Source: Atractiella rhizophila
Lineage: Eukaryota
Assembly: GCA_021432655.1 (NCBI GenBank)
Contig: MU271237.1
Span: forward strand, 15,132-79,131
Reading direction: 5' to 3'
DNA length: 64,000 nucleotides
Part shown: positions 42,794-44,309 of the stretch, one piece after another
Position numbering within the stretch: position 1 is the stretch's first letter
Layout of the letters: every line of letters starts with the position of its first letter
Notes under the pieces: generated by a model
The model's database searches: none
What the model saw: the letters and a program-made list of their open reading frames with translations, nothing else
Told to the model about the DNA's origin: nothing
Position numbers and translations under genes: made by a program

Positions 42794-44309
42794 TCACTTC
42801 TCCCTAGTGAACTTGAAGGGCACGATCTCACCATTGACGACCTTAGTGGCGAAGTCACTGTCGTTCGGGATCGGATTCTCCTCCCTCTTCACTTTCTCTT
42901 CCTTCTGCAAGCTCCTCCTCCTCATCTTCCTCTCCCCACTGCTCAGGGGAGCCTTCACTCCTCCAACCCCAGCGAGTGACCGTCTCTCCGCTTCCGTGCG
43001 TTCAGCCAGGATGGCGTTCACTGCTCCATTAGGTGATTCATAAGTCCAGGAGAAGGGGCATGGTGGGAAGAGACGACGCACGCTCGGCTTCGTCGATGGG
43101 AACTTGACGCTTGGAGACTATTTTGCATCATTGAGAATGGTTGGAGGAGAGCGAAAGGAGGACGACTCACAGGGTACAATCTCGCCGTTGACGACTTTGG
43201 TAGCGAAGTCCGAATCATTAGGGATCGGGTTCTCCTGCCTCTTTTCCTTCTTGACTGTTTAACAATCAGTCAGGCTTTTAGGAAGAATACAATACGAATC
43301 AAATGACGAACAAGGCACAATTTCGCCGTTCACGACTTTGGTGGGGAAGTCAGAGTCGTTCGGAATGGGGTTCTCCTGCCTCTTCTCTTTGATGACTGTG
43401 TATCAACCAGTCAGTACTGGAGCAAGACAGACTTTGAGACGACGAACAAGGCACGATCTCTCCATTCACTACTTTGGTAGGAAAGTCCGAATCATTCGGG
43501 ATCGGGTTCTCCTGCCTCTTCTCCTTCTTGACTGTTTAAGAATCAGTCGGGCTTTGAGGAAGAATACGAATCAAAGGACGAACAGGGCACGATCTCTCCG
43601 TTCACTACTTTCGTAGGAAAGTCCGAGTCATTAGGGATCGGGTTCTCCTGCCTCTTCTCCTTCTTGACTGTTTATAAAGGGGTTAGGTCTTGAGAAAGAA
43701 CATGAGTCCAAAGACGAACAAGGCACAATCTCTCCGTTCACTACTTTTGTGGGAAAGTCCGAATCATTAGGGATCGGGTTCTCCTGTCTCTTTTCCTTCT
43801 TGACTGTCCATCATCCACCAGTCAGTTAACGACAGAGAGGCAGAGACGTAGAAAGACCAACAAGGTACGATCTCTCCATTCACTACTTTTGTAGGAAAGT
43901 CGGAATCATTTGGGATCGGATTCTCCTGCCTCTTTTCCTTCTTGACTATTCATCCACTGCCAGTCAATATGCGACGAAGCGGTAAGCGTCAGAAACACGA
44001 ACAAGGCACGATTTCTCCATTCACTACTTTTGTGGGAAAGTCAGAATCATTTGGGATCGGATTCTCCTGTCTCTCTTCCAACACAACGTCCGAATCAACA
44101 ATCGCCACCCTTCGAACCTTCGTCCTCCTTCCCCTCTTCGCCTTCTTCCCGGACGACCCAAAGGCAGTGATGACGCCGTTGACGGATTTGGTGGCGAAGT
44201 CGCTGTCGTTAGGGAGCGGATTGAGTCCTTGTTCTTGCGGTTGGGGGACGGGGAGGGAGAAGATTTGGAGTGGGAGGAGAGCGAGGGGGAGGAGGAGTTG
44301 GATGTGCAT
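42794..44309 (-). CDS. Secreted Kex2-processed repeat protein (peptide precursor), ~357 aa, 9 exons, 9 core repeats
   Basis: Signal peptide MHIQLLLPLALLPLQIFS/LP. Exons 44309-44003, 43945-43862, 43803-43720, 43667-43584, 43531-43448, 43395-43312, 43254-43171, 43117-43082, 43020-42794 splice via GT-AG into one 1074-nt frame. Confidence 0.88.

What the first reader, a model, noticed from the sequence alone, without database searches (positions are those of the whole stretch)
42794..44309. Hidden secreted multi-copy peptide precursor (Kex2-processed repeat protein / candidate fungal RiPP)
Seen: manual splicing gives a signal peptide plus 9 cores. These are one divergent copy (NPLPNDSDFATKSVNGVITAF), seven QENPIPNDSDF(P/A)TKVVNGEIVPF copies mostly separated by KKEKR, and a final KR-EENPIPNDSDFATKVVNGEIVPF. 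Established: signal peptide plus KR-delimited repeats is the architecture of alpha-factor, Ustilago Rep1, candidalysin Ece1 and ustiloxin/dikaritin precursors, processed by Kex2/Kex1. Inference: the cell releases ~8 copies of a 23-26 aa peptide, probably N-terminally pyroglutamylated (Gln start), with an NDS sequon and a VVNGEIV beta-hairpin-like tail. I do not recognise this core as a described peptide.
Basis: partly seen in the sequence, partly recalled or inferred. Interest (0 to 1): 0.9.

Follow-up and report, generated by a model that had tools for sequence, protein, structure and literature searches.

The report
Intron-split secreted repeat-peptide precursor gene
This is a real, spliced and expressed gene of the root-dwelling fungus Atractiella rhizophila that encodes a secreted precursor carrying nine copies of one small peptide; it is a distant, wrongly annotated member of a mushroom peptide family whose peptides have already been detected but whose function is unknown.

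Summary
On the minus strand (ATG 44309, stop 42794) nine exons joined by eight 52-61-nt GT..AG introns give a 357-aa protein. It has a hydrophobic N-terminus, one divergent core, seven QENPIPNDSDF(P/A)TKVVNGEIVPF cores and a final EENP... core. Six cores are released exactly by in-silico KR/RR cleavage. RNA contigs of four public runs carry the joints of all eight introns.

The eight near-identical cores differ almost only synonymously, while the introns have diverged. The organism is Atractiella rhizophila, and its deposited model (199 aa) stops inside intron 4.

The core is not an orphan. [quoted passage not shown] That family includes Coprinopsis cinerea KEP 497993. Its peptide pyro-QIPAELPTKSINGNIEPY was found by mass spectrometry; the knock-out had no phenotype and the peptide no antibacterial activity (PMC9769878).

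No RiPP tailoring enzyme lies in the 64 kb.

Verdict: a new, divergent member of a known kind. Notable features are one intron per repeat, an NDS sequon in every copy and transcripts in root RNA. Function remains unknown. Interest is moderate.

The parts
42794..44309 (-). Whole coding region of the precursor gene (9 exons, 8 introns; 357 aa plus stop)
   Evidence: Splice model and translation; spliced RNA contigs; 100% match of exons 1-4 to NCBI protein BT69DRAFT_37826 of Atractiella rhizophila
44003..44309 (-). Exon 1 (307 nt): start codon, hydrophobic N-terminus, divergent copy, basic spacer (KKAKRGRRTKVRR), first canonical copy
   Evidence: no in-frame ATG upstream in the open frame 43989-44537
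44247..44309 (-). Probable signal peptide (about residues 1-21, MHIQLLLPLALLPLQIFSLPV; cleavage point not determined)
   Evidence: Kyte-Doolittle 11-residue means of 1.5-2.0 over windows 1-11. No other hydrophobic stretch: the highest 19-residue mean after residue 25 is 0.28. SignalP was not available. Relatives carry clear signal peptides at the same place
44160..44225 (-). Divergent first copy LNPLPNDSDFATKSVNGVITAF
   Evidence: scores 13.9-14.0 bits against the family unit profiles
43946..44002 (-). Intron 1 (57 nt, GTTCGT..AG, phase 1)
   Evidence: joint 43945|44003 in RNA contigs of X14 and X19
43862..43945 (-). Exon 2 (84 nt): end of Phe codon, KKEKR linker, one core
43804..43861 (-). 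Intron 2 (58 nt, GTTGGT..AG)
   Evidence: joint 43803|43862 in X14 and X19
43720..43803 (-). Exon 3 (84 nt): linker plus core
43668..43719 (-). Intron 3 (52 nt)
   Evidence: joint 43667|43720 in X14, offset form in X19
43584..43667 (-). Exon 4 (84 nt): linker plus core
43532..43583 (-). Intron 4 (52 nt); the deposited 199-aa model reads into it and stops
   Evidence: joint seen only as the offset form 43531|43586 with two bridging bases in X1
43448..43531 (-). Exon 5 (84 nt): linker plus core
43396..43447 (-). Intron 5 (52 nt)
   Evidence: joint 43395|43448 in X14, X1 and X19
43312..43395 (-). Exon 6 (84 nt): IKEKR linker plus core
43255..43311 (-). Intron 6 (57 nt)
   Evidence: joint 43254|43312 in X7 and X19
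43171..43254 (-). Exon 7 (84 nt): linker plus core (Ala variant)
43118..43170 (-). Intron 7 (53 nt, GTGAGT..AG)
   Evidence: joint 43117|43171 in 4 of 4 runs
43082..43117 (-). Exon 8 (36 nt): end of Phe codon, SKR, start of spacer
43021..43081 (-). Intron 8 (61 nt, GTGCGT..CAG; a NAGNAG alternative acceptor lies 3 nt upstream)
   Evidence: One search lists both in-frame acceptors; joint 43020|43082 in 4 of 4 runs
42794..43020 (-). Exon 9 (227 nt with stop): non-repeat spacer with RR, RRR and KR sites, last copy EENPIPNDSDFATKVVNGEIVPF (42815-42883), tail KFTREK, TGA
42715..42793 (-). 3' untranslated region (at least)
   Evidence: RNA contigs of X19 and X7 reach 42715/42716 (table 8)
44310..44450 (-). 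5' untranslated region (at least; the contigs run past the end of the stretch laid)
   Evidence: Contigs of X14, X1 and X7 cover up to 44450 (table 8). An A/T-rich TATA-like run lies at about 44525-44535 and was not tested

Best explanation
The locus is the gene for a Kex2-processed repeat protein (KEP) of the root endophyte Atractiella rhizophila. It is a divergent Pucciniomycotina member of the family typified by Coprinopsis cinerea KEP 497993.

Shown here: the gene is transcribed, all eight introns are removed, and the mRNA encodes a 357-aa protein. That protein has a hydrophobic N-terminus, no other hydrophobic segment, and nine copies of one core. Selection keeps the peptide sequence constant while silent sites, introns and the spacer change.

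Inferred: the precursor enters the ER through a cleaved signal peptide. It may be N-glycosylated at the NDS sequon found in all nine copies. A kexin-type protease cuts it in the Golgi after KR/RR, and possibly after the single Arg of LEER before copy 1. A Kex1-type carboxypeptidase removes the trailing basic residues. The new N-terminal Gln cyclises to pyroglutamate. The result would be about seven to eight copies per precursor of pyro-QENPIPNDSDF(P/A)TKVVNGEIVPF, with or without a KKE tail (23-26 aa, acidic, no Cys). Its conserved part would be a TKxx-NG-xIxP[FY] hairpin ending in an aromatic residue.

Most likely role (inference, about even odds): a diffusible signal acting on the fungus itself or on partners in the root. 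A toxin or a wall component is less likely. The C. cinerea homologue is dispensable for axenic growth and fruiting and has no antibacterial activity, and the Atractiella transcript occurs in root-associated RNA.
For: Gene model and splicing: with spliced joints for all 8 introns in RNA contigs.

Expression: three RNA-type runs and one untyped run (X19) carry the spliced form. In X19 the summed word depth of exon bins reaches tens of thousands, against 893 in the bin that is mostly intron 8. Depth is a poor measure of expression.

KEP criteria: KR/RR cleavage gives 6 fragments starting at QENP, and cores fill 8 x 23 of 357 residues.

Selection on the 8 cores: 23 of 69 columns vary, with 3/1/19 by codon position. 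Summed pairwise differences are 278 synonymous against 25 non-synonymous over 28 pairs. One Ser changes codon family (TCN to AGT). Exons are 87% identical and introns 62%.

Differences seen in other runs: 35 lie in the CDS, 26 synonymous. Canonical cores have 14 synonymous and one D>E, while the spacer has 6 non-synonymous and 2 synonymous.

Family: phmmer over 1.84 billion representatives finds SP + dibasic-flanked repeat proteins P0005, P0007, P0008, P0009 and P0010 at E 5e-5 to 9e-4. Profile searches add Somion, Mrakia, Hymenopellis, Tricholoma, Lactarius, Amanita and many unnamed proteins. A unit profile was built only from second-tier relatives (62 units, consensus KRQIPAEIAVKSPNGQIVPY). 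It scores the Atractiella protein 66.8 bits, against 5.9 for the best of 500 shuffles and 3.8 for the best other window ORF. The relatives-only profile A3 scores P0001 at 111 bits, E 1e-26 at Z = 5.8e9.

Relatives' unit ends: of 36 regex matches (one unit matched twice), 28 are followed by K/R-R within 16 residues, 5 end the protein, and 3 do neither.

Experimental anchor: pyro-QIPAELPTKSINGNIEPY(K) was detected from KEP 497993 and is lost in its knock-out (PMC9769878).

Structure: a hairpin TKVV-NG-EIVP appears in 4 of 4 canonical copies of a low-confidence model.
Against: No peptide, secretion or cleavage data exist for Atractiella.

The signal peptide was judged only by hydropathy, and the N-region has no Lys/Arg.

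The Kex2, Kex1 and glutaminyl cyclase genes of this fungus could not be checked, because no genome is held.

Copy 1 is preceded by ER, not KR.

In C. cinerea the peptides persisted in the kex2a, kex2b, kex2c, kex1 and kex2a/c knock-outs, so the responsible protease is not settled even there (section 9).

Homology rests on a short motif of about 20 residues repeated several times. A single Atractiella unit scores only 14-18 bits. The first-tier relatives were picked from a huge library by likeness to the query, so those profile tests are partly circular.

The search with the relatives-only profile did not list P0001. My local score suggests this was its word pre-filter, but that is inference.

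The proposed signalling role has no direct support.
Confidence: 0.8

Rival explanations
1. It is a secreted but essentially uncleaved, N-glycosylated repeat protein (a mucin-, adhesin- or wall-protein-like molecule). The KKEKR stretches would be charged linkers rather than processing sites.
For: Nine NDS sequons, one per copy. The precursor is predicted disordered apart from small hairpins (pLDDT 51). No cleavage has been shown for this protein. In C. cinerea, kex2 knock-outs did not abolish the homologous peptides.
Against: Dibasic pairs sit at unit ends throughout a family whose linkers otherwise vary freely (28 of 36 matches, plus 5 at the C-terminus). Gln follows KR directly in 6 of 9 copies here and in many relatives. 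The homologous precursor is processed to discrete peptides in Pichia and in C. cinerea.
Confidence: 0.08
2. It is the precursor of a heavily modified RiPP of the dikaritin/ustiloxin kind or another fungal class. The repeats would supply short cores that are cyclised or cross-linked by dedicated enzymes.
For: The repeat-plus-KR architecture is shared with UstA-type precursors (PMC6339444 section 10). An MFS transporter gene lies directly upstream on the same strand (45403-47454).
Against: Pfam scans covered 198 stop-to-stop ORFs across the 64-kb window: 20 of at least 120 aa in 30-56 kb, 64 of the 177 of at least 60 aa listed for about 33-56 kb, and 114 of the 145 of at least 90 aa listed for the rest. 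They found no DUF3328/UstYa, tyrosinase, methyltransferase, P450 or S9 prolyl oligopeptidase. The protein has no Tyr, Trp or Cys. The whole 23-residue unit, not a 4-6-residue core, is under purifying selection. The characterised homologue is linear with only a pyroglutamate.
Confidence: 0.03
3. It is processed as proposed, but the peptides stay on the hyphal surface as structural 'repellent'-type peptides like Ustilago Rep1, rather than acting as diffusible signals.
For: Very high apparent transcript abundance in one run would suit a structural product. Rep1 is named as a KEP whose peptides attach to hyphae (PMC6339444 section 15).
Against: The peptide is acidic and hydrophilic (pI 4.05, GRAVY -0.57), not amphipathic or hydrophobic. 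One peptide from the C. cinerea precursor accumulates in culture supernatant, although the QIPAE... peptide was found mainly in young caps. No sequence comparison with Rep1 was made here.
Confidence: 0.07

Closest known systems
Coprinopsis cinerea KEP 497993 and its peptides pyro-QIPAELPTKSINGNIEPY(K) (Vogt et al. 2022, PMC9769878; sections 6-10 and parts of the supplement read)
   Same: Signal peptide followed by dibasic-flanked repeats. The core starts with Gln right after KR. They share P-x-[DE]-x-P-T-K-x-x-N-G-x-I-x-P-[YF] with the aromatic residue last; by eye 9 of the 18 C. cinerea positions are identical. The gene is highly transcribed and has no Pfam family. Family-level profiles match the Atractiella protein far above shuffles.
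   Different: Different subphylum: the paper reports conservation among agaricomycetes only. The core is 23 aa rather than 18. It has three extra N-terminal residues and a two-residue insertion that creates an N-D-S glycosylation sequon in all nine copies. It ends in Phe rather than Tyr, has a longer KKEKR linker, and has one intron per repeat. No peptide has been detected for Atractiella.
Kex2-processed repeat proteins in general (Le Marquer et al. 2019, PMC6339444; Umemura 2020, PMC7329392)
   Same: Meets the operational definition: at least three similar fragments after KR/RR cleavage, and repeats above 15% of the protein.
   Different: Atractiella appears in neither survey's text nor held supplements (0 hits). 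None of the conserved motifs named in PMC6339444 section 10 (EDYXI, DADAATXYV, YVW[GA][GS], SPPHKT, QKLKVD, XSDW) resembles this core. Neither main text mentions introns.
Yeast alpha-factor precursor (MF-alpha)
   Same: A secreted precursor with tandem peptides released at KR. The peptide has a central turn and a C-terminal aromatic residue (recalled). A language-model look-alike search on relative P0009 listed an MF_alpha cluster third at 0.81, which is a lead only.
   Different: No MF_alpha or MF_alpha_N Pfam match. No STE13 X-Ala/X-Pro dipeptides follow the KR. No sequence similarity. Basidiomycetes use lipopeptide pheromones for mating (stated in PMC6339444 section 15).
Ustiloxin/phomopsin-type (dikaritin) RiPP precursors
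   Same: Signal peptide plus KR-separated repeats.
   Different: No UstYa/DUF3328 neighbour and no Tyr in the core. Selection acts on the full 23-residue unit.
Laccaria bicolor MiSSP8 (cited in PMC9769878 as a KEP-type 'mutualism modulator', reference 45; only that citation was seen)
   Same: A small secreted Kex2-site-bearing repeat protein of a root-associated basidiomycete. It is a precedent for a symbiosis role.
   Different: No comparison was made here, and the repeat motif is different as far as I recall.

Membership tests
KEP (Kex2-processed repeat protein) as defined by the pipeline of PMC6339444 | Predicted signal peptide and no transmembrane segment | tested here: inconclusive
   Hydropathy only. 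The N-terminal 11-residue means are 1.5-2.0, and no later 19-residue window exceeds 0.28. SignalP and TMHMM were not available, and the N-region lacks Lys/Arg
KEP (Kex2-processed repeat protein) as defined by the pipeline of PMC6339444 | At least three similar fragments after in-silico cleavage at KR/RR | tested here: met
   Six 26-28-aa fragments begin at QENP. In addition there is one 41-aa fragment holding a core, the last 29-aa fragment, and the divergent copy
KEP (Kex2-processed repeat protein) as defined by the pipeline of PMC6339444 | Repeats occupy at least 15% of the protein | tested here: met
   8 x 23 of 357 residues, about 52%
KEP (Kex2-processed repeat protein) as defined by the pipeline of PMC6339444 | Actual cleavage by a kexin and release of the peptides | not testable with these tools
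   Needs peptidomics. The presence of Kex2 in this genome could not be checked
C. cinerea KEP 497993-type peptide family | Core similar to Q-IPAE-x-[PA]-[TV]-K-x-x-NG-x-[IV]-x-P-[YF] | tested here: met
   Alignment A1. Whole-library phmmer E 5e-5 to 9e-4 to five SP + dibasic-repeat relatives. The second-tier unit profile gives 66.8 bits against 5.9 for the best shuffle, and the A3 profile gives 111 bits. Caveats: the motif is short and the relatives were selected by likeness
C. cinerea KEP 497993-type peptide family | Gln immediately after the dibasic site (pyroglutamate-capable N-terminus) | tested here: met
   6 of 9 copies follow KR directly with Gln. Copy 1 has Gln after ER, the last copy has Glu after KR, and the divergent copy follows the signal peptide region
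C. cinerea KEP 497993-type peptide family | Peptides detectable by LC-MS/MS and lost in the gene knock-out | not testable with these tools
   Shown only for C. cinerea
Dikaritin / UstYa-dependent RiPP precursors | UstYa (DUF3328) and oxidase genes in the vicinity | tested here: not met
   No such Pfam family in the 198 ORFs scanned over the 64-kb window. Short exons could be missed
Dikaritin / UstYa-dependent RiPP precursors | Short Tyr-containing core for oxidative cross-linking | tested here: not met
   0 Tyr, 0 Trp and 0 Cys in the 357-aa protein
Alpha-factor-type pheromone precursors | MF_alpha / MF_alpha_N domains or an STE13 X-Ala/X-Pro signature after KR | tested here: not met
   No Pfam match. 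The residues after KR are Q-E-N-P

The most novel reading that the evidence does not exclude
The QIPAE...NGxIVP[YF] peptides could be an ancient secreted peptide signal of Dikarya with a conserved receptor. They are kept from Pucciniomycotina through Tremellomycetes to Agaricomycetes, with a look-alike in one ascomycete. On this reading Atractiella has turned its version into a glycopeptide: a two-residue insertion gives an N-glycosylation sequon in all nine copies. It makes the peptide in very large amounts in roots, where it acts on the plant or on other root microbes. The one-intron-per-repeat build may also be ancestral, since a Hymenopellis model looks mis-spliced at the same spot. If so, automatic annotation would systematically truncate this family and published KEP catalogues would undercount it.
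Probability: 0.15. Interest if true: 0.75.

Novelty: new member of a known kind. Interest (0 to 1): 0.4.

Why it matters
KEP-derived peptides are among the least understood fungal secreted products, and for the KEP 497993 family peptides are proven but no function is known. This locus adds four things.

- It extends the family across the deepest split of the Basidiomycota, which argues for a conserved function.
- It places a member in a culturable plant-root endophyte, with transcripts in root RNA samples. That offers a biotic setting in which to test function, where axenic C. cinerea knock-outs were silent.
- It shows a variant with a conserved N-glycosylation sequon.
- It gives a concrete case where one intron per 84-nt repeat defeated gene prediction: the public model has 5 of the 9 copies. 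Proteome-based KEP surveys may therefore miss or truncate such genes.

Tried and rejected
- Pfam on exon 1, the last exon and ten family members gave no real family. The above-cut-off PF20953 score of P0011 has no stretch that passes on its own and comes from summed repeat fragments.
- The word-indexed search for longer proteins with exon 1 found only the deposited model itself (1 of 277 candidates).
- Of the 10 phmmer hits, I set aside P0002, P0003, P0004 and P0006 as unrelated or unassignable repeat proteins by eye. They lack the signal-peptide-plus-dibasic build. P0003 has a VNGKIVP-like repeat, and its relation is left open.
- The metagenome scan with P0001 gave one locus, L001. It is a bacterial ExbD-like ORF with a chance KEKRQENP match.
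- The alignment A2 could not seed that scan, and the unit alignment A1 was too short for the protein search.
- The window's genome is not held, so paralogues, Kex2, Kex1 and glutaminyl cyclase could not be sought.
- The ESM Atlas search on P0009 gave only sub-threshold leads.
- Literature string searches for six family motifs, six further variants, and the Atractiella core found nothing except PMC9769878 for the C. cinerea peptide. Table S2 of PMC7329392 lists accessions without sequences. Figure S10b of PMC9769878, the homologue alignment, is an image without text. I therefore cannot say which homologues those authors listed.
- Earlier notes of this scan held nothing on this genome or family.
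- Parts of the gene without contig cover in some runs, and joints that skip whole repeat units (43667|44003, 43114|43317), cannot be told apart from assembly collapse over repeats.
- The AlphaFold model is too weak for a fold search (pLDDT 51), and none was run.
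Full report
**Observation.** The region is a 136-bp tandem array (43179-44074, 6.5 copies, 77% matches, score 848). Stop-to-stop ORFs on the minus strand each read KKEKRQENPIPNDSDF(P/A)TKVVNGEIVP and then run into junk.

On the minus strand every unit ends in ...GTN CCN T|GTNNGT, and about 52-58 nt later comes YAG|TC. Removing seven such introns gives an open frame that stops early, at 296 aa. An eighth intron (GTGCGT...CTAAT...CAG, 43081-43021) brings the last copy into frame.

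The full model has nine exons of 307, 84 x 6, 36 and 227 nt, giving 1074 nt or 357 aa. All seven repeat introns lie after the first base of the Phe codon. The array period is not a multiple of three, so the frame exists only after splicing.

**Transcription and splicing.** The run search listed 24 public runs from 21 studies that hold 23-45% of the stretch's sampled words. Four are on record as RNA, and all four are root metagenome or metatranscriptome libraries.

I laid four runs (X14 and X7, RNA; X1, guessed RNA; X19, untyped) at 90% likeness or more. All are contigs, not reads.

Support for each joint with CT..AC ends (GT..AG on the minus strand):

| Intron | Joint | Runs |
|---|---|---|
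| 8 | 43020\|43082 | 4 of 4 |
| 7 | 43117\|43171 | 4 of 4 |
| 5 | 43395\|43448 | 3 (X14, X1, X19) |
| 6 | 43254\|43312 | 2 (X7, X19) |
| 2 | 43803\|43862 | 2 (X14, X19) |
| 1 | 43945\|44003 | 2 (X14, X19) |
| 3 | 43667\|43720 | 1 exact (X14) plus an offset form in X19 |
| 4 | 43531\|43586 with two bridging bases | 1 (X1), offset form only |

The intron 4 form is the same junction with a one-base difference beside it.

Of the two in-frame acceptors of intron 8, all four runs use 43021. In X19, 305 of 461 laid pieces are at least 99% alike. Its exon bins carry summed word depths of 10^4-10^5, against 893 in the bin that is mostly intron 8. Depth of contigs is a poor measure of expression, so I take this only as "abundant and efficiently spliced". 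Contigs reach 42715 at the 3' side and run past 44450 at the 5' side.

**The product.** The protein begins MHIQLLLPLALLPLQIFSLPV. The 11-residue Kyte-Doolittle means are 1.5-2.0 there, and nothing later exceeds 0.28 over 19 residues. It has no Cys, Trp or Tyr.

In-silico cleavage after KR/RR gives these fragments:
- an N-terminal fragment with the divergent copy;
- GRR and TKVRR;
- a 41-aa fragment with copy 1, which is preceded by LEER;
- six fragments of 26-28 aa that start exactly at QENP;
- three spacer fragments plus a lone Arg;
- a 10-aa SLQKEEKVKR fragment;
- EENPIPNDSDFATKVVNGEIVPFKFTREK.

Every one of the nine copies has the sequon N-D-S. The 23-aa core is acidic (pI 4.05).

An AlphaFold model of the deposited 199-aa protein, made with a six-sequence alignment, is poor (pLDDT 51.2). 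Even so, it places a TKVV-NG-EIVP hairpin in 4 of 4 canonical copies and coil elsewhere.

**Selection.** Among the eight near-identical cores, 23 of 69 nucleotide columns vary: 3, 1 and 19 by codon position. Summed over 28 pairs there are 278 synonymous and 25 non-synonymous nucleotide differences. The Ser of the sequon is TCN in seven copies and AGT in the last.

The six 84-nt internal exons are on average 86.7% identical (15 pairs). Introns 1-7 are 62.5% identical (21 pairs).

One search listed 40 differences between the window and the contigs of other runs; 4 more were not shown. Of the 40, 35 lie in the CDS, and 26 of those are synonymous. The canonical cores carry 14 synonymous changes and one D>E. 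The 54-residue spacer carries 6 non-synonymous and 2 synonymous changes. Some of these may be contigs of one repeat laid on another, which does not change the point. It is the peptide, not the DNA repeat, that is kept.

**Organism and annotation.** Exon 1 matches one protein at 100%: NCBI 'hypothetical protein BT69DRAFT_37826 [Atractiella rhizophila]', 199 aa. That model splices introns 1-3 as here, then reads into intron 4 and ends ...VPCSSFDSYSSSKPD. The gene is therefore annotated but truncated, with 5 of its 9 copies.

A. rhizophila belongs to Pucciniomycotina, Atractiellomycetes. It is described as a root endophyte first found in Populus (passages of PMC6450171).

**Relatives.** phmmer of P0001 against 1.84 billion representatives gave 10 hits at E <= 1e-3. 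Five of them (P0005, P0007, P0008, P0009, P0010; E 5e-5 to 9e-4) are small proteins with a signal peptide. They carry repeats such as ADINSMPAEVPTKGVNGDIVAY-RKR or QVEVNTIPEEVPTKAPNGQIERY-AKR. I set the other four aside.

A profile of these proteins with P0001 found P0011-P0015. A profile of the relatives alone (A3) found 35 proteins. The named ones come from Hymenopellis radicata, Tricholoma matsutake, two Lactarius species, Amanita muscaria, Mrakia frigida (Tremellomycetes) and Cyphellophora attinorum (an ascomycete). Somion occarium was named (taxonomy). All are 'hypothetical'.

Typical units are KR-QIPAEVAVKSPNGQVVPY-[ST]KR. In ten relatives, 36 regex matches (one unit matched twice) are followed by K/R-R within 16 residues in 28 cases. 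Five end the protein and 3 do neither.

Aligned unit by unit, Atractiella differs by a two-residue insertion (P-ND-SDF against P-AEV) that creates the sequon. It also has three extra residues after the Gln.

**How firm is the homology?** One Atractiella unit scores 17.8 bits against a profile of first-tier units; the best of 2000 shuffles is 6.9. Against a profile of 62 second-tier units from 29 of the 31 proteins P0017-P0047 it scores 14.0 bits; the best shuffle is 9.1. That profile's consensus is KRQIPAEIAVKSPNGQIVPY.

The whole protein scores 100.1 and 66.8 bits against those two profiles. The best of 500 shuffles scores 8.0 and 5.9. The best window ORF outside the gene scores 11.3 and 3.8.

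The A3 profile scores P0001 at 111 bits, E 1.3e-26 for a 5.8-billion database. One search did not list P0001, and I attribute that to its word pre-filter.

The first-tier relatives were chosen by likeness to the query, so these tests are not fully independent. Several features were not used in the searches: the signal peptide, the dibasic unit ends, Gln after KR, the aromatic last residue and fungal origin. They make common descent the simplest reading.

**What is known about the family.** Vogt et al. 2022 (PMC9769878; outline, sections 6, 7, 8 and 10, passages of section 9 and of the supplement read) worked on C. cinerea KEP 497993.

- They expressed it in Pichia and found pyro-QIPAELPTKSINGNIEPYKV and C-terminally trimmed forms.
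- In C. cinerea they confirmed pyro-QIPAELPTKSINGNIEPY and ...YK with synthetic standards, mainly in young fruiting-body caps. These peptides were lost in the kep knock-out.
- The knock-out grew and fruited normally.
- Synthetic peptides did not inhibit five bacteria.
- The peptides persisted in all kex knock-outs, including kex2a/c.
- The authors call the KEP 'highly conserved among agaricomycetes' with at least 13 homologues.

By eye, 9 of the 18 positions of that peptide are identical in the Atractiella core, and 12 of 18 are identical in the family consensus.

A full-text search finds that peptide in no other paper. The Atractiella and family motifs appear in none. Atractiella is absent from the two KEP surveys, text and held supplements alike. 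Umemura's Table S1 lists the surveyed strains row by row (about 1,465 rows), and no row names Atractiella.

**RiPP cluster?** I scanned Pfam over 20 ORFs of at least 120 aa in 30-56 kb. I also scanned 64 of the 177 ORFs of at least 60 aa listed for about 33-56 kb, and 114 of the 145 ORFs of at least 90 aa listed for the rest of the window.

The neighbours are a USP-type ubiquitin hydrolase with DUSP and ubiquitin-like domains (39.3-42.6 kb, +) and an MFS transporter (45.4-47.5 kb, -). There are also a cyclin, a formin, a fungal-type kinase, SPT8, a porin and a copia element. No UstYa/DUF3328, tyrosinase, methyltransferase, P450 or prolyl oligopeptidase turned up. Short exons could hide a hit, but nothing supports a tailoring cluster.

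**Mechanism and verdict.** The steps shown are transcription, splicing, the reading frame, purifying selection on the peptide, and family membership. The steps inferred are signal-peptide cleavage, possible N-glycosylation, kexin cleavage, Kex1 trimming, pyroglutamate formation and secretion of about seven to eight peptides per precursor.

I put 0.8 on the KEP-processing reading. Within it, I give roughly even odds that the peptide is a diffusible signal in fungal self-communication or root-associated interactions. This is a new, divergent member of a known kind.

Its points of interest are the deep phylogenetic reach, the conserved sequon, the one-intron-per-repeat build that broke the public gene model, and its presence in root RNA. 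Function is as unknown here as in C. cinerea.

Noticed in passing
window 32877-33670 and 40082-40875: A 794-bp direct duplication at 99.7% identity. A piece of the formin FH2-coding region reappears inside the region of the USP/UCH-DUSP-ubiquitin-like gene, and FH2 Pfam hits occur at both places. It is either a recent segmental duplication or an assembly artefact.
   Followed up: partly
window 59286-63494 (-): A Ty1/copia-type retroelement with gag-pre-integrase, integrase, SH3-like and RVT_2 domains. The reverse-transcriptase match is split between two ORFs at about 59721.
   Followed up: no
protein P0021 (Hymenopellis radicata model): After '...NGNIVP' the deposited model reads about 28 unrelated residues and then 'FPPKKPLNQR'. 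That is what codons for IPAEEAVKSE give when read one base out of frame. This suggests an unrecognised intron right after 'VP', the same position as in Atractiella. It is inferred from the protein alone; no DNA was seen.
   Followed up: partly
window 43114-44003 (joints): Some RNA contigs join across whole repeat units (43667|44003 in X1 and X19; 43114|43317 in X7). Every internal exon is 84 nt and all introns share one phase, so exon skipping would stay in frame and give precursors with fewer copies. Contig collapse over repeats, or copy-number differences between strains, explain the joints equally well.
   Followed up: no
window 45403-47454 (-): An MFS transporter gene (three ORF pieces, two with MFS_1 matches) lies about 1.1 kb upstream of the precursor gene on the same strand. 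There is no evidence of a functional link.
   Followed up: no
protein P0003 (796 aa, unnamed): A long secreted-looking protein with about 17 repeats of IPVPSAMVNGKIVPVALPEEL-type units and no dibasic sites. It shares the VNGxIVP hairpin-like motif with the KEP family (E 9e-12 to P0001). Its relation to the family is unresolved.
   Followed up: no
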